A DNA stretch of 42,478 nt, taken from a virus. Lineage: Duplodnaviria; Heunggongvirae; Uroviricota; Caudoviricetes. Position numbers and translations under genes: made by a program. The DNA lies in IMG/VR virus record IMGVR_UViG_2698536308_000013; one strand, given 5' to 3'. This document shows positions 16,899 to 40,926 of the stretch, in pieces (position 1 is the first letter of the stretch; each line of letters starts with the position of its first letter). A model generated the notes under the pieces. That model had not been told where the DNA came from and made no database searches. It saw only the letters and a program-made list of their open reading frames with translations.

Positions 16899-18356
16899 TT
16901 AGGAGCGCCAAAAAAAACCTGAAAACAATATAATAACAGGATAAATTTCAAGGCGACCAAGAATCATAGCTATGCACATTAAATATTTTGCAATGTCATT
17001 AAGCACTCCGAATGACGATGCAGTAGCCCCAAAACCTAATCCCATATTATTAATACATGCAGCCACTGTTGCAAATGATGTAAGAAAATCATATCCCATA
17101 CCATTTAACACCAGTATAAAAAACACCGTGAAGAGAGTATAAAGAAAAAAGAAACTCCATACAGACCTCATTACACGATCTGTAACTATCTTCCCTCCTA
17201 CATTTACACTCAACAACGCTCTGGGATGAGAAAGCTGATTTATCTCGTGTTTGCTTTGTTTGAAAAGTATAAGAAATCGAAGTGACTTAATTCCACCACA
17301 GGTTGAACCTATACATCCCCCAAAGAAACTTGACAACAGCAAAAACACTATCGTGTGCGTGGGCCAGTTTGCATAATCCTGCGTAGCTAAACCATTATCA
17401 GTGAGCATGGAGCTGGCAAGAAAAAACGAATGAATAAAACTTCCATGCAAGTCATACATACCTATATGCCAGACCTGGAAAGAGGTAACAATGATCACCC
17501 CTAAGGCTATTAACAGAAAGAAACGAAGTTCAATATCTCTGATTAAAGGTTTTATCGTTTTTCTGCTAATAACAATATACCAAAGAGTGAAGTTGAAAGC
17601 CGATAGCAGGGAAAAAGAACCAGCCACCAGCTCAACCAAATAGTTATTAAAATATCCGATACTCTCGCTATGAGTTGAGAAACCACCAAGCGAAACTGTG
17701 GAAATCCCGTGACAAATAGCATCAAACAAAGGCATTCCTGCAAGTCTATAACAGACAATACAAGCAATACCTAATAAAGAATAAGTTATCCACAGTGTCC
17801 GTGACGTATCGGCCAGGCGGGGAGTGAGTTTGTCATCCTTAAATGGCCCCGGCATTTCTGACTGATAAAGCTTTGCACCACCAATACCCAATAATGGCAA
17901 TACTGCAACCGCCAGAACAATAACTCCTAAACCACCTATAAAATTTAACTGTGACCGATAGTACAAATATGCCCGAGGTAATGAACTAACATCATCAATT
18001 ACAGTTGCTCCTGTTGTTGTTATTCCAGAAACCCCTTCAAACAGAGCATCAATGAACGTTAAATTAAGTTCTGAGTCAATCCATAAAGGGAATGCACTAA
18101 TAACAGAAAACAAAATCCAAAACATTACAATTATAATAAACCCATCACGGGTACGTAATTGAATGCCAGATTTCTTAGTTGTATACCACGCTCCGCCACC
18201 AATGCAAAAAAATATAACGAAAGTTATAAAGAAAACGAACAGGCTTTTTTCTTTATAAAACAATGCTACAACCATTGGTGGCAACATTGAAAGACTATAG
18301 AGCCAAACCAGGAACCCACACATATGAGTAACAACTCTTACATGAGATGTATTCAT
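16899..18356 (-). CDS. trkG: Trk-system potassium uptake protein TrkG
   Basis: Polytopic membrane protein beginning MNTSHVRVVTHMCGFLVWLY as recalled for K-12 TrkG; low-GC gene next to Rz as in Rac. Confidence 0.9.
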   Translation of the reverse strand: MNTSHVRVVTHMCGFLVWLYSLSMLPPMVVALFYKEKSLFVFFITFVIFFCIGGGAWYTTKKSGIQLRTRDGFIIIVMFWILFSVISAFPLWIDSELNLTFIDALFEGVSGITTTGATVIDDVSSLPRAYLYYRSQLNFIGGLGVIVLAVAVLPLLGIGGAKLYQSEMPGPFKDDKLTPRLADTSRTLWITYSLLGIACIVCYRLAGMPLFDAICHGISTVSLGGFSTHSESIGYFNNYLVELVAGSFSLLSAFNFTLWYIVISRKTIKPLIRDIELRFFLLIALGVIIVTSFQVWHIGMYDLHGSFIHSFFLASSMLTDNGLATQDYANWPTHTIVFLLLSSFFGGCIGSTCGGIKSLRFLILFKQSKHEINQLSHPRALLSVNVGGKIVTDRVMRSVWSFFFLYTLFTVFFILVLNGMGYDFLTSFATVAACINNMGLGFGATASSFGVLNDIAKYLMCIAMILGRLEIYPVIILFSGFFWRS

Positions 18357-18493
18357 ATCTAAATATTCTTTCAATTATAACCACCTTGCTGCAATATTAT
18401 GATTATACTGTATAAAATTTAACTCCTCTTAGATCTTACTTCACTGTTCCTTATGAAACAATCATCAAAATGAATCATATTGTAGTTAAGATT

Positions 18494-18958: not shown

Positions 18959-19487
18959 TGTTGCCCCCACAAACAGACTTCACGCTCAATCTCACGACGA
19001 GTCATNNNNNNNNNNNNNNNNNNNNNNNNNNNNNNNNNNNNNNNCCTTTCCATTGCTTACCGCCAGCATATGTCCAGCGACGTAGCTGGTCACATGCGCC
19101 TTTGATATCGCCCTGGTTTATTTTGCGAAGAAGCGTCGATGTTCTGAAATTGCCAGCACCCACGTTGTAGACGAACGAGTACAGAGCGCCGCGCGTTGTT
19201 TCCGGTATATCGACTTTGATGTACGGGTTAATTTGTCTGGCAACCGTGGCAAGGTCTTTATTCAAGAGTGTTTTGCATTCTGCTTTGGTATACGTTTTAC
19301 CGAGCATGATGTCTTTTCCTGTATGCCCGTGACATACAGTCCATACACCAACAATATCTTTGTATGGTATGTAGCTGACACCTTCCAGGCCATCGTCACC
19401 ACTTGGGCCAGTGATTAACACTGATGCTATAGCAATTGCTCCGCCACCAATAGCAGCAGCAACGACTTTTCGTAATGATGGAGGCAT
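18957..19487 (-). CDS. SAR-type endolysin (phage 21 R-like lysozyme), interrupted by an N-gap
   Basis: N-terminal signal-anchor-release-like hydrophobic, Gly/Ala-rich segment ([18 protein letters not shown]); stop overlaps the Rz start; exact 3' portion unreadable because of N-run. Confidence 0.65.
19006..19044. other. Assembly gap, 39 N
   Basis: Run of N in the sequence. Confidence 1.
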
Positions 19488-20928: not shown

Positions 20929-21865
20929 TTTTCCTCACATATGTCATATAGTAAAGGATTATATATACCGTTGTTTTGGACGCTCAAACAGCGAATCAGA
21001 TCAAATAAAACGCACATTTGTTAACATTTACACAAAGTCTGCGTGGGATATTCTGAAAGAATATCCATAATGTGGAGAGAATCTATTGAAGTGCATGGTG
21101 CCGGGTGCCTCCCGGTGAACAAAATGTTCGTGATACCTGTCGGCGACAGAAAAGGTTAATGGTATCACCCCACCGCACAGGGGGATTCACCATGCAGGAG
21201 TTTTCTTAGCAAACTCACTGCGCGCCCGGCAACTCCCAACCACATAAAATGCGGAGTTTGTGGCATTTATGCATATAACTCGCAGGAATTATCTTAAAAA
21301 ACTGATGTCGATCCGGATTAAAAAGAAGCAGGTCATCATCAGATGACTGGAAAAAAGGAAAACAAAAAATACTCATCATACAGTTTTGATTGCAGGGATG
21401 AGCCTGCTATGCACAATATGCAGAATATAAGCAAGATAAAAATATGCAGGCATATTATTTCGGATCTTGTTATTAACACAACCTTTTTAATAATCATTTG
21501 GCATACAATAAACCAGCCCAAAAAGAACCGCCTAAACAGGCGGTTGGTCAATACAAAGGATGCTTCGTCTTTATTATAGTAATCTGAGGCGTCGGGTGTC
21601 TTGTATCAGACAACATATTGTCCCGCTAAACAGCGAATTACAAACCACCCTGCAATGATCTCTCATCTCATTTTATATGAGTTGACGACATCAGGATAAC
21701 GCATCATCAGCCCCTGCCAAGAAATATCAAAACTCCCGCCAGCAATGTGTTATCACAATATTGTAAAAAAAACACAGCACCGAAACTATAACTGGTCTCT
21801 GTTATAATTTGGAGCAGAAAGACCAGTTGCCCAACTAGCAGCATTCTCCCCTGCTTTCCTGACGT

Positions 21866-22515: not shown

Positions 22516-22802
22516 AAATGACCTTTCTTTCTCCAGATTTCTTGTGTGCGAAAAACCCCTTCAGCATGCATCAGGCGCAATTCTTCTTTGGTGTAATCGC
22601 TGGTTTTTACCCGCCCGTCGATTAGATCGTGGCATGAGCTACAGGCTATCGCCGCCTGCATATCATGTGGTTTTGTCGCTGTTCCGCACGTCCCCGCCAG
22701 CCTGTAATGCGCCAGCACAGAGGTTTCGGGATTGTGATTGCAGTAGCCAGGGATTCTGATCTGGCACATCTGGCCTTTAGCCGCTTTACGTAAATTCACC
22801 AT
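22512..22802 (-). CDS. Nin-region protein (DUF1364-like, Cys/His-rich)
   Basis: 96 aa with CxxxxxC...CxxC...CSSCH pattern; translationally coupled to flanking genes. Confidence 0.45.
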   Translation of the reverse strand: MVNLRKAAKGQMCQIRIPGYCNHNPETSVLAHYRLAGTCGTATKPHDMQAAIACSSCHDLIDGRVKTSDYTKEELRLMHAEGVFRTQEIWRKKGHL

Positions 22803-23401
22803 TACGCAAACTCCAGTAGTTGTGCGGCCACATTTTCAACTTCCTCCTGAGAGGAGAATTTACGGAACAGAATCCAGTTCCACAGCACATTCAGTACAGA
22901 TTTATAAACCTGCTGAAACTCGACTTCGTCCATATTCGCAAAAGCGATGGATTTTGCCCGACGCCCACGGCTACCGTCCGGATAAATATGCTCGGTGTAA
23001 AATCCGGCCTGAATGGTTACCCACTCGCGGAAAGCCTCAAACGACTTTAGCAACGCCGTATCCCGGGTTCTACGAGTCGCAACGGTGTTAAGGTATTGCT
23101 CTGCGGCATCACTCAGGGCTGGCGTGTGTTCCCGACCAACTGATTCGCACAGGTAATCAACGAAACCAGACAGCAGTTCTCGTTCGCGAGGCGTGATCGC
23201 CCCACCGACCGGAGTCCAGTAATCGAATCCCAGTTGCAGGAGTTTGAAAAAACGCTTGTGGAATGCGTAGTTACGCACACGCTTAAAGTCTGCGTGTATC
23301 CACTCACCTATTTTGATTTGATGCAGAAAATCGCAACTCTCCGGCGTCGCCGGGAGAAGTAAACCAGAAGAGGTTTGTTTGACCAGTTGTATATGCGCCA
23401 T
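22802..23401 (-). CDS. Nin-region protein (DUF1367-like)
   Basis: 199 aa ORF upstream of and coupled to the DUF1364-like gene; family recalled from prophage annotations. Confidence 0.45.
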   Translation of the reverse strand: MAHIQLVKQTSSGLLLPATPESCDFLHQIKIGEWIHADFKRVRNYAFHKRFFKLLQLGFDYWTPVGGAITPRERELLSGFVDYLCESVGREHTPALSDAAEQYLNTVATRRTRDTALLKSFEAFREWVTIQAGFYTEHIYPDGSRGRRAKSIAFANMDEVEFQQVYKSVLNVLWNWILFRKFSSQEEVENVAAQLLEFA

Positions 23402-23681
23402 TTCTCAATCTCTCGATGGCGCAGCGCAGCAGATGCCAGTTGTTCAGGCTGACGAATAAAGTATAAATAAACTGGCTATGGTGTAAAGCCCCACATAGCA
23501 TGAACAAACACTACATATCAAATAGCTGGTACAAGGATAGAAATACGACACTTATTATTAAAAACGATTAGATAAATTACATTTTAATGTTATGCAAAAG
23601 TTCTTTTTTATCATAACATTTCAATAAAAGCATTACAGATGCAATCATCCCGTCATCATCAATTATTTAAGGTGGTTAAAC

Positions 23682-23768
23682 ATGGAAAATAACAAGTTCG
23701 CACATCTCGCTCCTTTTTTATCCGTAATCCTTTTCGCTTGTTGTTTTATATGGGCATTATTTTTATAA
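23682..23768 (+). CDS. Small hydrophobic peptide, 28 aa (MENNKFAHLAPFLSVILFACCFIWALFL)
   Basis: Strong SD AAGGTGG 6 nt upstream of ATG; single predicted TM helix; isolated in an AT-rich ORF-poor region. Below the ORF-track size cutoff. Confidence 0.35.
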   Translation: MENNKFAHLAPFLSVILFACCFIWALFL

Positions 23769-24176
23769 AGTAGCCACATGATAAGTTGCTGGAATCATAT
23801 TTCCCACTCAAGTCATTAACATTTGATAAGATATATCTAAAAGGACGCCTTTACATTATTTATGCGTATATAATTTATTTATATACACAGTAAAGGTATC
23901 CTGGGAAAATATTTATCGTTAAAAAATACATCATAAATAATTAAGCTGAAATTTCAGAACACAACTAATACACACAATAAGGTTCAGTAACAGTAATCTA
24001 TGTGGACTACATCGAGATTTTTTGATTAAACTTTAATAACTTATTCCTAACACACAGAATGCATAAACTAAAAGTAAAACAAATAGTTATACGAAAAACA
24101 ACCATATTTATTCTATCTTCTCCTCTAATCAACATATCAATTATGTGTTTCATAACAGCTTGACATAACCCTCCAA

Positions 24177-24199
24177 AAGATGCATTTTTAATGCATGTT
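24177..24199 (+). promoter_or_regulatory. NsrR-type operator-like palindrome upstream of the yeaR-like gene
   Basis: AAGATGCATTT-t-TAATGCATGTT; left half matches the recalled NsrR half-site AAGATGCATTT; TTGACA -35-like hexamer at 24160-24165. Confidence 0.45.
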
Positions 24200-24214
24200 T
24201 TGGAGGAGGTGGTT

Positions 24215-24553
24215 ATGACACACAAGAGAATTCCTAAAGATTGGGTAATCAAACGCTCAACTCCGTTCTTCACAAAAGAGAACGTACCTTCAGCGTTATT
24301 AACACATCATAATACAGCAGCAGGTGTTTTTGGGCAGTTGTGCGTAATGGAAGGCACTGTAACATATTATGGTTTTACTGATGAGAATGCTACTGAACCG
24401 GAGATAAAAGTAGTCATTAATGCTGGCGCTTTTGCAACAAGCCCACCACAATACTGGCACCGTGTTGAACTAAGCGATGATGCTCAGTTTAATATTAACT
24501 TTTGGGTCGCTCCAGACTTTTCGGGCGAAAAAGTCTATAGCACCAAAAAATAG
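24215..24553 (+). CDS. YeaR-like protein (DUF1971)
   Basis: About 112 aa; RSTPFFTKENVPSALLTHHNTAAGVFGQLCVMEGTVTYYGF resembles recalled E. coli YeaR; RBS GGAGG 7 nt upstream. Confidence 0.6.
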   Translation: MTHKRIPKDWVIKRSTPFFTKENVPSALLTHHNTAAGVFGQLCVMEGTVTYYGFTDENATEPEIKVVINAGAFATSPPQYWHRVELSDDAQFNINFWVAPDFSGEKVYSTKK

Positions 24554-25173: not shown

Positions 25174-26175
25174 TTAGTAATCTGCGTGTTTCGCACTTTT
25201 CAGAAATGCTTTCATATTTTCATTAGGTCGCTCAATTTCGAAGTTACTTCCATATAACTCTTGTAATTTTGGCCATAACTTACTTAATAACCCTCTCCTG
25301 CGATAAAATGGATGTATCCAAACGGTAGATAGGTACGGAGAATTTGCATTTGAATTGTTTATTGTGACCAGCCCAACTAAACATTGTCGATAACCACTAT
25401 TATCCATTGATTGTATTTCTTCGACGAATGGATACGCGATTACATCAGTCCAACCATGATCGGTTGTATCCCATTGCATTCCGTCATGACATTCCTTCGA
25501 CTGATAGCGGCGTAAAGCTACACACGCGAGCTTTTGCCAATCTGGAGAATTAATTGTGATCTCTTCATCGTATGACGCGCCTATTGGAGCGGGTATTGGT
25601 CTGATTAATCCAGCATGGCATTCATCATAGAACTTCATGTTTCCCTCAGAAACGTTGTGTACGTTGGGTTGCTCCATGTGTGCGCCATTCAAAAATAGCT
25701 CTGATAGTAGTGTATCTACACTGTAATCTTTATTGATTATTGTCGGCTTAGAGTTTTTCTTATTAAGGCCGCGAGTAACGATTTTTTGATCAATGTTAAC
25801 AACATGGAATAATCCGTCGGGGAGGCTAGCGAACCACGATGGGGCATCGGACCAGAATAGCATGCCTTTTGTACTTCTTAAGAGTTTAATTAAGTTAATA
25901 CAAGCTTCTTCACTAGTCTTGCCGTTGATGCGAAGTATGTTAGGACTAAAGTAATATTCATCCATATCAGGGAATGCAGCTTCGCAAAACTCCTGTACAT
26001 AATTTAGCACCTGGATTCTACAGAGATCATCATAGCTGGTAATAACTAAGGGGGTATCTTCATTACTATTATGATTATCAATAATGCAATCTATAGCGAG
26101 ACTTACTGCTTTGCGTATCACTTCAGTTGAATCTAACGACTCTAAAAATTTTGTCTTTCGTGTGCGAATATCCAT
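25174..26175 (-). CDS. Hypothetical protein, 333 aa, with possible C-terminal GNAT-like acetyltransferase fold; second gene of a low-GC operon
   Basis: Clean ORF 15 nt downstream of gene A. C-terminus CLVGLVTINN...STVWIHPFYRRRGLLSKLW resembles GNAT beta4-alpha3 with an R-x-x-G motif. N-terminal 230 aa unrecognised. Confidence 0.5.
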   Translation of the reverse strand: MDIRTRKTKFLESLDSTEVIRKAVSLAIDCIIDNHNSNEDTPLVITSYDDLCRIQVLNYVQEFCEAAFPDMDEYYFSPNILRINGKTSEEACINLIKLLRSTKGMLFWSDAPSWFASLPDGLFHVVNIDQKIVTRGLNKKNSKPTIINKDYSVDTLLSELFLNGAHMEQPNVHNVSEGNMKFYDECHAGLIRPIPAPIGASYDEEITINSPDWQKLACVALRRYQSKECHDGMQWDTTDHGWTDVIAYPFVEEIQSMDNSGYRQCLVGLVTINNSNANSPYLSTVWIHPFYRRRGLLSKLWPKLQELYGSNFEIERPNENMKAFLKSAKHADY

Positions 26176-26190
26176 GTATGACCTGCGCTA

Positions 26191-27213
26191 TTAAAATTCA
26201 TGAATGAACGGTTTGTCATCTGGTTGCAAAATGGTGGTTTTATTCGTTGCTACATTTAAACTGTTGTAGAGCATAATTGCCAGGTTCGATGCATTTTCAA
26301 TCAGCGTTTCAAGATCCTGGTCTGTAATCACTACGAGGTTCCCTTCTTTATCCTTTCCACCACGATGCACTAAGTGATTTCGATTGAGGGTTGCCAATTC
26401 AATAGCTTCTATCGGACAGTCTTTTTGTACTTTTATATCGAATGTAGCTTCATAGCGGTCGATTACCTTTTTAGTGCTATGCCAGCTTGCACTGATCAAG
26501 TGTTCCTTGATTGACCTGATTAGCTCTCCCCTAATTTTCTCGATGGGTTCACCCTTGAAAGGCAACGCAGCAATATCTTTGCTTACTTTAAATTCAGTCT
26601 TACCTTTTTCTATACAATTGGCTATGTAGACATCATCTTTCTCTATAGAATTAATGAATAGCTCAACATAAAGCGTTTCCAAAGCTGTAATAACATTCGT
26701 GTAGAGCAAACTAAGCAAGTGGTTTTTTTGCTGTTGTTCAGTTTTATCTTTTGCAAGTTTTTTTATTTTATCGATATTATCAATGAATTTTAAATACGGA
26801 TTACCGGAAGACGTTACAGCGTCGTAGATATCATCATCGTACCAATCATCTATATTATTTGAGTTTCCAGACCAGTCAAAACATTGTGTTTGTAATTCAT
26901 CTACTAATTCCTCAATATACTCAGATTTAACATATTGACCGAAGATGGATTGTAGTTCTTCGCTCGCATCATACGGCCCGCCATATATGTAAGCATAGCC
27001 ACCTTCTCTACTTTCATACGGACAAGCATTTGCCGGATCTTCAAAGTTTTCAAAGAACCAGTTTTTCATTACTTCGAGTTGATCTTTTTTGCTTATGTAT
27101 TTTAAAGATTTTAGTGGAACTTTCTTTCCATTAACCTCGAAAACAATTTTCACGATGTAACGCTCCCTTGTATCAATTGCGCAACTATTATACCACAGCG
27201 AAATACAGGGCAT
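26191..27213 (-). CDS. Hypothetical protein, about 340 aa, with C-terminal HEPN-like R-x4-H motif; first gene of a low-GC operon
   Basis: Perfect SD AAGGAGG 6 nt upstream of the ATG at 27213 (tracked ORF extends to 27282); C-terminal LNRNHLVHRGG fits the HEPN Rx4-6H signature. No other recognisable domain. Confidence 0.5.
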   Translation of the reverse strand: MPCISLWYNSCAIDTRERYIVKIVFEVNGKKVPLKSLKYISKKDQLEVMKNWFFENFEDPANACPYESREGGYAYIYGGPYDASEELQSIFGQYVKSEYIEELVDELQTQCFDWSGNSNNIDDWYDDDIYDAVTSSGNPYLKFIDNIDKIKKLAKDKTEQQQKNHLLSLLYTNVITALETLYVELFINSIEKDDVYIANCIEKGKTEFKVSKDIAALPFKGEPIEKIRGELIRSIKEHLISASWHSTKKVIDRYEATFDIKVQKDCPIEAIELATLNRNHLVHRGGKDKEGNLVVITDQDLETLIENASNLAIMLYNSLNVATNKTTILQPDDKPFIHEF

Positions 27214-27351
27214 AACCTGCCTCCTTAAACTAACATACCATGAGCCAGCAATGTCCGCTATTGGCACAAAGCGGACAACCACGCTAGCTCTCCCCTGTGC
27301 CAGAAAAATGTCAATTTACATATGAACTAATGCTCTTTGATCTAGTAACGT

Positions 27352-40725: not shown

Positions 40726-40926
40726 ATGGAGGTGTTCATGTATAAAATTACCGCCACTATTGAAAAGGAAGGTGGCACTCCTACTAACTGGACAAGATAT
40801 TCAAAATCTAAACTAACGAAATCAGAATGCGAAAAAATGCTCTCAGGTAAAAAAGAAGCAGGCGTTTCCAGAGAGCAGAAAGTAAAACTGATAAATTTTA
40901 ATTGCGAGAAACTTCAGTCCTCGTGA
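40726..40926 (+). CDS. ydaC: YdaC-like small protein
   Basis: MEVFMYKITATIEKEGGTPTNWTRYSKSKLTKSECEKML... between ralR and xis as in Rac. Confidence 0.6.
   Translation: MEVFMYKITATIEKEGGTPTNWTRYSKSKLTKSECEKMLSGKKEAGVSREQKVKLINFNCEKLQSS

What the first reader, a model, noticed from the sequence alone, without database searches (positions are those of the whole stretch)
23660..23780. 28-aa hydrophobic peptide ORF with a strong RBS in an otherwise ORF-free AT-rich stretch: possible type I toxin or small membrane protein
ATG at 23682 is preceded by AAGGTGG at ideal spacing. The product MENNKFAHLAPFLSVILFACCFIWALFL is a polar head plus a single TM helix, the typical architecture of type I toxins and small membrane regulators. 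It is invisible to a 60-aa ORF cutoff. No antisense partner was identified by eye.
Basis: seen in the sequence. Interest (0 to 1): 0.5.

Follow-up and report, generated by a model that had tools for sequence, protein, structure and literature searches.

The report
Conserved unannotated 28-residue prophage membrane peptide
The 28-codon reading frame is a real, selectively maintained but never annotated gene for a tiny membrane-spanning peptide, carried by lambda-like prophages in about a fifth of complete E. coli genomes; whether it is a toxin or a harmless membrane regulator is still open.

Summary
The ORF (23682..23768, +) and its AAGGTGG Shine-Dalgarno are exactly as described. The 800-bp gap around it is 26-36% G+C and holds no longer ORF. 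The window is a Rac-like lambdoid prophage of E. coli.

Evidence that it is a gene:
- The ORF was an intact 28 codons in every complete copy fetched (204 loci, 20 nucleotide haplotypes, 16 peptide variants).
- pN/pS is 0.12-0.25 in its frame and about 1 or more in the other forward frames.
- A Shine-Dalgarno is kept in all lineages.
- It lies a fixed ~130 nt downstream of a conserved 43-nt A/T-rich block.

This ~220-bp cassette sits at the cargo hot spot next to the nin/Q module, facing against lytic transcription. Its downstream neighbours vary: DUF1971 here, hokD, iteAS or others elsewhere. It matches 1175 of 5426 complete E. coli genomes, including CFT073. It is absent from the two K-12 prophage regions examined. 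No RefSeq or phage record inspected annotates it, and it hits no Pfam, NCBIfam, PHROG, PADLOC, PDB or Rfam family.

The "small membrane protein" reading is supported. The "type I toxin" reading is neither shown nor excluded: the mRNA is no more structured than shuffles, and the antisense promoter and terminator candidates are weak and degenerate in the window's own lineage.

This is a new member of a known kind, of moderate interest.

The parts
23552..23594 (+). Conserved 43-nt A/T-rich block (TTATTATTAAAAACGATTAGATAAATTACATTTTAATGTTATG), the left edge of the cassette. Presumed promoter or regulatory region of the sORF; this role is inferred, since no consensus sigma-70 site was found on the + strand.
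   Evidence: The block is nearly invariant across lineages whose following 5' UTR has diverged with indels. A pattern scan of IMG/VR gave 120 occurrences. All 118 that were not cut by a contig end are followed 128-135 nt later by an intact 28-codon ORF. No + strand promoter-like site passed the scan.
23587..23619 (+). Inverted repeat ATGTTATG (23587-23594) / CATAACAT (23612-23619) with a 17-nt loop. Candidate stem-loop near the 5' end of the sORF mRNA.
   Evidence: RNAalifold predicts it independently. All cells are paired in 24 distinct sequences. The only variation is G-C<->G-U and U-A<->U-G, which is tolerated on the sense strand and would give mismatches on the antisense strand. It forms in the window's MFE fold. 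There are no double-sided compensatory changes, so the support is suggestive only.
23620..23668 (+). Variable part of the 5' leader. Each lineage has its own small hairpin just upstream of the SD.
   Evidence: The alignment shows indels and low identity here, in contrast with the block and the ORF. The lineage-specific hairpin is paired in 72% of cells, with one both-sided change.
23669..23675 (+). Shine-Dalgarno AAGGTGG, 6 nt from the ATG.
   Evidence: Duplex energy is -8.4 kcal/mol here. An SD is retained in all lineages at -3.9 to -6.0 kcal/mol, and is weakest (-4.4) in the commonest, CFT073 type.
23682..23768 (+). The sORF: 28 codons plus TAA, encoding MENNKFAHLAPFLSVILFACCFIWALFL (polar N-terminus, one hydrophobic helix running to the C-terminus).
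   Evidence: It is intact in all complete copies. Variable sites by codon position are 6/9/17. Minimum-spanning-tree counts give 25 synonymous and 27 non-synonymous events, omega about 0.27, P = 5e-6. Homology with the hokD-linked type ends one base after the stop codon.
23460..23487 (-). Neighbouring element, not part of the sORF proper. It is the best sigma-70-like site of the gap (TTTACA-16-TATACT) and points into DUF1367 and the nin/Q module, divergent from the sORF.
   Evidence: The same hexamers sit at the same place in L002 and L003.

Best explanation
What it is: a genuine, translated small gene. It is a ~220-bp self-contained cassette made of a conserved A/T-rich upstream block, an ~85-nt leader, an SD and 28 codons. 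Lambdoid prophages of Escherichia and Shigella carry it at the cargo hot spot between the early/replication genes and the nin/Q module.

Setting: it is divergent from the first nin gene and faces head-on into pR-direction (lytic) transcription. I therefore infer that it is expressed from the resident prophage, like a moron, rather than during lytic growth.

Product: a tail-less single-pass inner-membrane peptide. Residues ~8-28 form the helix, with invariant His8, Pro11, Ser14 and Trp24 and near-invariant Cys21.

Most likely mode of action (inferred, not shown): it works inside the membrane by associating with a larger membrane protein, as MgtR, KdpF, PmrR or AcrZ do, and so gives the lysogen or the prophage some advantage. 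I rate this above a role as an RNA-repressed membrane-damaging toxin.

Shown: gene-like conservation, purifying selection on the peptide, a retained SD, cassette boundaries, distribution and absence of annotation.

Inferred: transcription start, expression in lysogens, membrane insertion, partner binding.
For: ORF integrity:
- All complete copies fetched keep exactly 28 codons, the ATG and the stop (88 loci; 118/118 block-anchored copies; 204 loci with 20 ORF haplotypes and 16 peptides). The 5' leader, by contrast, carries indels.

Selection:
- pN/pS for deep pairs is 0.12-0.25 in this frame, against 0.9-1.5 in the other forward frames.
- The antisense frame that shares wobble positions has stops in other lineages.
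- Substitution events by codon position are 8/16/28 (chi-square P = 0.003). The excess of synonymous events has P = 5e-6.

Translation signal: an SD is retained in every lineage.

Cassette behaviour:
- Homology between the window type and the hokD-linked type stops at the stop codon.
- Downstream neighbours differ: DUF1971, hokD, iteS/iteA, a 752-aa gene and a 601-aa gene.
- The upstream block and the ORF are strictly linked.

Hydrophobicity: it ranks first of 192 small ORFs in the window.

Prevalence: 1175 of 5426 complete E. coli genomes match. It occurs in S. flexneri and E. ruysiae and in CFT073 at NC_004431.1 complement(1338563..1338649).

Against a classic toxin architecture: no structured mRNA, no Rfam hit, single copy, and antisense signals degraded in the window's lineage while the ORF stays under selection.
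Against: - No direct evidence of transcription or translation could be obtained. The Sakai Ribo-seq supplement has no match, although the one file with a hit had been truncated when stored and Sakai may lack the cassette. The CFT073 Ribo-seq preprint could not be opened.
- No consensus sigma-70 promoter was found on the + strand.
- The selection statistics rest on only 84 nt and closely related genomes. The event counts come from a minimum spanning tree, not a full phylogenetic model.
- The partner-binding mechanism is an analogy. No partner is indicated by gene neighbourhood, because the neighbours vary.
- A short hydrophobic peptide on a mobile element beside hokD is also exactly what a type I toxin looks like.
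Confidence: 0.55

Rival explanations
1. Type I toxin-antitoxin module. The peptide is a membrane-depolarising toxin, and its translation is held down by a cis-encoded antisense RNA. That RNA would start at a minus-strand promoter overlapping the ATG/SD region and end at the CGCTT-N8-AAGCG hairpin inside the conserved block (~105 nt). Alternatively, it would start at a promoter just past the stop codon.
For: - The architecture fits: 28 aa, one hydrophobic helix, a long leader, a mobile-element location next to hokD, and invisibility to annotation.
- In the hokD-linked lineages the scan finds a minus-strand promoter-like site over the ATG/SD (TTTCCA-16-CATAAT or TATGAT). It also finds a minus-strand terminator-like hairpin in the block, CGCTTTTAATAATAAGCG followed by TTGTGTTTAT.
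- That hairpin shows one compensatory variant, CACTT/AAGTG, in L046.
- The window has a minus-strand promoter-like site (TTATCA-17-AATAAT, 23784..23756) overlapping the ORF's 3' end.
- The last five codons are almost free of synonymous change.
- RNAalifold proposes a short SD-to-codon 6-8 pairing.
Against: - The promoter-like hits are no more numerous than in shuffled sequence: 2 found against 1.5-1.7 expected, and 3 against 6.4.
- The -35 of the ATG-overlapping site is fixed by coding (ATGGAAAA).
- In the window's lineage the spacer is 15 nt, the hairpin loses 2 of 5 pairs, and no terminator-like site exists on either strand. The ORF is nevertheless intact and under selection there.
- L008's G-U variant of the hairpin would be an A-C mismatch on the minus strand.
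- The sense RNA is not unusually structured. The antisense fold is only marginal (z = -1.83).
- No Rfam antitoxin or toxin-mRNA family matches.
- It is single-copy.
Confidence: 0.25
2. The ORF is incidental. The conserved thing would be a non-coding DNA or RNA element of the nin/Q junction: a promoter or operator region, a transcription insulator or terminator against read-through from cargo genes, or a recombination linker between phage modules. The peptide would not be made.
For: - The strongest conservation in the cassette is in the non-coding 43-nt block and the ATGTTATG/CATAACAT repeat.
- A good promoter-like site for the nin module lies 65 nt to the left of the block.
- No + strand promoter was recognised.
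- There are no expression data.
Against: - A non-coding element does not predict an excess of change at third codon positions, an omega of about 0.27 in one frame only, the total absence of indels and stops in 87 nt while the adjacent leader accumulates indels, or a retained SD at fixed spacing.
- In L005 an IS3 replaced everything upstream of the SD, yet the ORF is still intact.
Confidence: 0.1
3. It is a remnant or a special-purpose peptide: either the decapitated signal peptide of a lost lipoprotein or secreted-protein gene, or a leader peptide that regulates the downstream DUF1971 gene.
For: - There are weak hits to lipoprotein signal-peptide regions: NCBIfam Lp6.6 at E = 0.03 and a PHROG Rz-like spanin at E = 0.24.
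- LFAC in the window type and FAGC in the L039 type resemble a lipobox.
- DUF1971 lies on the same strand, 447 nt downstream.
Against: - The hits are far below the curated cutoffs.
- The commonest types (FVLC, FVFC) lack a lipobox.
- Processing would leave a mature peptide of only 8-9 residues.
- The stop codon is at the same place in all lineages, and homology ends there.
- tblastn found no longer relative in phages or plasmids.
- Most copies are followed by convergent or unrelated genes, not DUF1971.
Confidence: 0.03

Closest known systems
Small hydrophobic type I toxins of enterobacteria (ShoB 26 aa, TisB 29 aa, DinQ 27 aa, ZorO 29 aa, IbsC 19 aa; Hok/HokD 50-51 aa)
   Same: The size is similar, with a single hydrophobic helix. 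ShoB and Ibs also end hydrophobically (sequences recalled from my own knowledge). The leader is long relative to the ORF. The gene sits on horizontally acquired DNA, is routinely missed by annotation, and in many prophages lies ~110 nt from, and convergent with, hokD.
   Different: There is no detectable sequence similarity to any family model. No antitoxin RNA was found. The mRNA is no more structured than shuffles. It is single-copy. The cassette occurs without hokD (this window), and hokD occurs without it in K-12 Qin, so the two are independent modules.
Small regulatory inner-membrane proteins (MgtR 30 aa, KdpF 29 aa, PmrR 29 aa, MgtS 31 aa, AcrZ 49 aa, CydX 37 aa)
   Same: It has a short polar N-terminus followed by one helix that makes up almost the whole protein. 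Helix residues are conserved (His8, Pro11, Ser14, Cys21, Trp24). Purifying selection acts on the peptide. The comparison with these proteins rests on my own knowledge of them.
   Different: Those proteins are encoded beside or within the operon of their partner, which is how the partners were found. Here the neighbours vary, so no partner is indicated. The gene is prophage-borne, not a core gene, and there is no homology.
Lambdoid prophage morons (lambda bor and lom, HK97 gp15, hokD/relBE of Qin)
   Same: It is an autonomous unit inserted between conserved phage modules and oriented against lytic transcription. Its G+C is lower than that of its flanks. It is present or absent independently of its neighbours.
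   Different: It is far smaller than the described morons. No clear promoter or terminator pair was recognisable in the window. Its function is unknown.

Membership tests
Type I toxin-antitoxin system | Small (<60 aa) hydrophobic, membrane-targeted peptide as the toxin | tested here: met
   28 aa. Residues 10-28 have a Kyte-Doolittle mean of 2.46-2.62 in three variants. It is the most hydrophobic of 192 small ORFs in the window.
Type I toxin-antitoxin system | An antisense or partly complementary sRNA antitoxin encoded at the locus, with its own promoter and terminator | tested here: inconclusive
   Candidate minus-strand promoter and terminator exist in the hokD-linked lineages, at chance frequency. 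In the window's lineage the spacer is 15 nt, the hairpin is broken and no terminator-like site exists. There is no Rfam match. The antisense fold has z = -1.83.
Type I toxin-antitoxin system | Highly structured toxin mRNA that keeps the SD or a standby site inaccessible until processing | tested here: not met
   Sense-strand folds of three lineages give z = -0.73, +1.48 and +0.43 against shuffles. RNAalifold gives a consensus energy of only -6 kcal/mol, with a 5-bp SD pairing.
Type I toxin-antitoxin system | Growth arrest or membrane damage on overexpression, relieved by the RNA | not testable with these tools
   This needs an induction experiment.
Hok/Gef family (the neighbouring toxin in many loci) | Sequence membership of the Hok family, with mok/sok/fbi mRNA elements | tested here: not met
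   There is no Pfam or NCBIfam hit for the peptide and no hok/sok Rfam hit in 23400-24200. The cassette and hokD occur independently.
Small regulatory membrane proteins (MgtR/KdpF/PmrR/AcrZ kind; a functional class, not a homology family) | A translated product of <=50 aa with one transmembrane helix | tested here: inconclusive
   The helix and the coding selection are shown. Translation itself was not observed.
Small regulatory membrane proteins (MgtR/KdpF/PmrR/AcrZ kind; a functional class, not a homology family) | Physical association with, and modulation of, a larger membrane protein | not testable with these tools
   No conserved neighbour suggests a partner. The peptide is below the 30-aa limit for structure prediction.
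Bacterial lipoprotein / signal peptide | Lipobox [LVI][ASTVI][GAS]C, followed by a mature domain | tested here: not met
   The commonest variants read FVLC or FVFC. Only 8-9 residues follow the Cys. The hits to lipoprotein models are far below cutoff (14 bits against a cutoff of 35).
Prophage moron | An autonomous insert between conserved phage modules, present or absent independently, and differing in composition | tested here: met
   Cassette boundaries are defined by the end of homology at the stop codon and by the differing upstream flank of L046 at the block. G+C is 27-32% against ~50% in the nin genes. It is absent from K-12 Qin and DLP12.
Prophage moron | Its own promoter and terminator, active in the lysogen | tested here: inconclusive
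   No + strand consensus promoter and no terminator were found in the window. A terminator follows the ORF only in L005 and, shared with hokD, in type B.

The most novel reading that the evidence does not exclude
The cassette is a previously unrecognised type I toxin-antitoxin family, or another membrane-acting addiction or exclusion peptide, of lambdoid prophages. It would be present in roughly one in five E. coli genomes, including the model uropathogen CFT073, but absent from K-12, which would explain why it escaped the K-12-centred small-protein and TA screens. Its regulatory RNA would be embedded in the conserved 43-nt block and leader.
Probability: 0.22. Interest if true: 0.6.

Novelty: new member of a known kind. 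Interest (0 to 1): 0.38.

Why it matters
Small membrane proteins and type I toxins are systematically missed by annotation. This gene is common: it matches 22% of complete E. coli genomes and occurs in Shigella and in the reference uropathogen CFT073. It is under selection, and it sits at a prophage hot spot that also collects hokD and anti-phage systems.

If the peptide is toxic or modulates a host membrane protein, it would add a widespread prophage-encoded factor to E. coli lysogen physiology. It would also give annotation pipelines a concrete model to add.

If it is simply a small membrane protein of unknown role, it remains a clean and easily testable candidate, but not a conceptual surprise.

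Tried and rejected
- Exact look-up of five peptide variants in the 15-billion-protein collection found none. This is expected, because gene callers drop ORFs under 30 aa.
- The search for homologous proteins refuses queries under 40 aa. Structure prediction and the representative search need at least 30 aa, so neither was used.
- Pfam, NCBIfam, PHROGs, PADLOC and PDB profile searches gave nothing above noise.
- Rfam gave nothing relevant in 23400-24200, at gathering threshold or at E<=10.
- A full-text search for the peptide strings found 0 papers.
- The supplements of the Sakai Ribo-seq paper hold no match.
- Searching for the CFT073 coordinates as numbers returned only irrelevant papers and was a wasted search.
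- The bioRxiv preprint 10.64898/2026.09.28.754932 (CFT073 Ribo-seq, 338 new sORFs) is indexed but could not be opened under any id. Full-text probing shows only that it mentions 'transmembrane' 11 times and 'type I toxin' once.
- The lipoprotein or signal-peptide remnant reading and the leader-peptide reading were rejected (see rivals).
- The antisense 38-aa ORF (23663..23779, -) was rejected because it has stops in other lineages.
- The 53-aa +1-frame ORF seen in the hokD-linked types was rejected because it is absent from the window type.
- K-12 Qin and DLP12 were checked and lack the cassette.

Full report
**1. The observation**

An ATG at 23682 opens a 28-codon frame that ends with TAA at 23766-23768 and encodes MENNKFAHLAPFLSVILFACCFIWALFL. 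AAGGTGG lies at 23669-23675, 6 nt upstream. Its predicted duplex with the 3' end of 16S rRNA is -8.4 kcal/mol.

The ORF sits in an ~800-bp gap of 26-36% G+C; the genes to its left are 47-55% G+C. The gap is bounded by a DUF1367 gene (22802..23401, minus strand) and a DUF1971 gene (24215..24553, plus strand).

Of 192 ATG-ORFs of 25-50 aa in the window, this one is the most hydrophobic and one of only five with an SD-like motif. None of the other eleven most hydrophobic ORFs has such a motif. So the combination was unusual even before conservation was considered.

**2. Context**

The window is a Rac-like lambdoid prophage of E. coli integrated at ttcA. The gap region (23400-24200) is 100% identical to several complete genomes. 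The surrounding annotation shows recET, ralR, kilR, sieB, trkG, lysis genes, a Q-like DUF1133 gene and the nin-type genes DUF1364 and DUF1367. Rfam finds RalA (40744-40922) and STnc100 (21039-21225) and nothing near the sORF.

The nin/Q/lysis genes are on the minus strand. The sORF is therefore divergent from DUF1367 and head-on to lytic (pR-direction) transcription. No RefSeq or phage record that I inspected annotates the sORF.

**3. It is a conserved gene**

A sensitive DNA search with 23560-23900 matched 1175 of 5426 complete E. coli genomes.
- 464 genomes carry the window type over at least 80% of the query.
- About 700 carry a type that is only ~73% identical. In the rows listed, that alignment ends at query position 210, which is one base after the stop codon.

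In those divergent loci the reading frame is intact and still 28 codons, for example MENNKSAHYAPFLSVILFVLCCVWALFL.

Wider sampling gave the same picture:
- A peptide-anchored scan of IMG/VR gave 193 relatives. All 80 that were fetched are intact.
- The scan of GTDB species representatives found the ORF only in Shigella flexneri and Escherichia ruysiae.
- Across 204 loci there are 63 distinct cassette sequences, 20 ORF haplotypes and 16 peptide variants. None has an indel, a frameshift or a premature stop.

The selection statistics agree:
- Variable sites by codon position are 6/9/17.
- Counted as events on a minimum spanning tree they are 8/16/28 (chi-square P = 0.003). That tree gives 25 synonymous and 27 non-synonymous events, omega about 0.27, and a binomial P of 5e-6 for the synonymous excess.
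- Deep pairwise comparisons give pN/pS of 0.12-0.25 in this frame and 0.9-1.5 in the two other forward frames.
- The one antisense frame with a low ratio is the frame that shares wobble positions, and it carries stop codons in other lineages.

An SD is kept in every lineage. It is weaker in the commonest, CFT073-type lineage (AAAGTGAG, -4.4 kcal/mol) than in the window. M1, E2, N3, N4, H8, P11, F12, L13, S14, I16, L17, F18, W24, A25, F27 and L28 are invariant, and A7, V15, C21 and L26 nearly so.

Together these points show purifying selection on the peptide sequence. That is hard to reconcile with a purely non-coding element.

**4. Anatomy of the cassette**

Upstream of the ORF, a 43-nt A/T-rich block (23552-23594) is almost invariant, even between lineages whose following leader has diverged with indels. 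A pattern scan for the block alone returned 120 IMG/VR occurrences. Every one of the 118 not truncated by a contig end is followed 128-135 nt later by the intact ORF.

The cassette therefore runs from the block to the stop codon, about 220 bp:
- On the left, L046 diverges right at the edge of the block, and L036 carries an IS element a little further upstream.
- On the right, homology stops at the stop codon.

Downstream neighbours vary:
- an AT-rich spacer plus DUF1971 (window type);
- a convergent hokD ~110 nt away (CFT073 type);
- the iteS/iteA anti-phage pair (L005);
- a 752-aa gene (L036);
- a 601-aa gene (L046).

The cassette and hokD are independent. The window has the cassette without hokD, and K-12 Qin has hokD without the cassette. 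K-12 DLP12 lacks the cassette too.

**5. RNA-level features**

The right end of the block (ATGTTATG, 23587-23594) forms an inverted repeat with CATAACAT (23612-23619).
- RNAalifold predicts this stem on its own.
- All cells pair in 24 distinct sequences. The only variation (G-C/G-U and U-A/U-G) is compatible with an RNA stem on the sense strand and not on the antisense strand.
- With no double-sided changes, this is suggestive rather than proven.

If the stem is part of the mRNA, transcription must start inside the block. Yet the consensus scan finds no + strand sigma-70 promoter in the window, L002 or L003. The promoter therefore remains unidentified.

The sense RNA as a whole is no more stable than shuffled sequence in three lineages (z = -0.73, +1.48, +0.43).

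**6. Testing the type I toxin idea**

In the hokD-linked lineages the scan reports two minus-strand features:
- a promoter-like site over the ATG/SD (TTTCCA-16-CATAAT or TATGAT);
- a terminator-like hairpin in the left part of the block (CGCTTTTAATAATAAGCG followed by TTGTGTTTAT).

Together they could delimit a ~105-nt antisense RNA covering the leader. L046 shows a compensatory CACTT/AAGTG version of the hairpin.

Several points count against this:
- The promoter-like hits are within the number expected in shuffles.
- The -35 is dictated by the coding sequence ATGGAAAA.
- L008's variant would be an A-C mismatch on the minus strand.
- In the window's own lineage the spacer shrinks to 15 nt, the hairpin loses two of its five pairs, and no terminator-like site exists on either strand.

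A second promoter-like site in the window (23784..23756, minus strand) overlaps the ORF's last codons. Those codons are unusually poor in synonymous change, but its -35 lies in flank that is not conserved between types.

The locus is single-copy and there is no Rfam hit even at E<=10. The toxin reading therefore stays possible but unsupported. I give it about 0.25.

**7. Comparison with what is known**

The peptide has no hit in Pfam, NCBIfam, PHROGs, PADLOC or the PDB. The weak hits to lipoprotein signal regions do not survive inspection: the commonest variants lack a lipobox, and only 8-9 residues would remain after cleavage.

The peptide strings occur in no searchable paper and not in the supplements of the Sakai Ribo-seq study.

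CFT073 carries the cassette at NC_004431.1 complement(1338563..1338649), unannotated in RefSeq. A 2026 preprint reports Ribo-seq of that strain with 338 new sORFs, but it could not be opened. That is the most direct pending check.

By architecture, the nearest things are the short hydrophobic type I toxins (ShoB, TisB, DinQ, ZorO, Ibs) and the small regulatory membrane proteins (MgtR, KdpF, PmrR, MgtS, AcrZ). By genomic behaviour, it is a prophage moron.

**8. Verdict**

The ORF is a real, selectively maintained, unannotated small gene that is common in E. coli prophages (about 0.85 for this core claim).

My best mechanistic reading is a lysogen-expressed single-pass membrane peptide that acts by associating with a larger membrane protein (0.55 for the whole statement). 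A type I toxin is the main rival (0.25). A purely non-coding element (0.1) and a remnant or leader peptide (0.03) are unlikely.

It is a new member of a known kind, the small membrane proteins of mobile elements. It is of moderate interest and is cheap to test experimentally.

Noticed in passing
window 40744-40922 (-): Full-length RalA sRNA (Rfam RF02694, 225 bits), next to where ralR is annotated in an identical genome. This is an established type I TA system in the same prophage, so the window already holds one bona fide type I module.
   Followed up: no
window 21039-21225 (-): STnc100 sRNA match (RF02076, 86.6 bits) just downstream of the Q-like DUF1133 gene. This is where a lambdoid late-promoter leader transcript would lie.
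   Followed up: no
window 23460-23487 (-): The best sigma-70-like site in the gap (TTTACA-16-TATACT, 10 of 12) points into DUF1367 and the nin/Q module. The same hexamers are conserved upstream of both DUF1367-type and rem/DUF968-type nin modules (L002, L003). This suggests the nin/Q module has its own promoter, divergent from the sORF.
   Followed up: partly
window 25174-26175 (-) and 26191-27282 (-): Two adjacent cargo genes (333 aa and 363 aa), with only weak Pfam matches (GNAT acetyltransferase, E = 9e-4; HEPN/RES N-terminal domain 1, E = 2e-4) and no PADLOC hit. They may be an uncharacterised toxin-antitoxin or defence pair in the same hot spot. This cargo differs from that of the genome with the identical sORF region (L001).
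   Followed up: partly
window 19006-19062: A run of 57 N (masked or unresolved bases) inside the lysis-gene region.
   Followed up: no
L005 2950-3160 (E. coli F2_81): An IS3-family element is inserted just upstream of the sORF's SD and removes the whole leader and block. The 28-codon ORF is still intact there. It is followed by a good bidirectional terminator and then by the iteS/iteA anti-phage genes.
   Followed up: partly
L003 3208-3320 / L210 1849-1960 (CFT073 type): The sORF stop lies ~25 nt from the hokD terminator hairpin. That hairpin is U-tailed only for the hokD strand, so an sORF transcript would probably read antisense into the 3' end of the hokD mRNA. Cross-talk between the two modules is possible.
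   Followed up: no
window 16899-18374 (-): By position in an identical genome (L001), this ORF corresponds to the potassium transporter gene trkG, embedded in the prophage as in K-12 Rac. The structural-gene region of that genome also carries an IS2 that splits rrrD.
   Followed up: no
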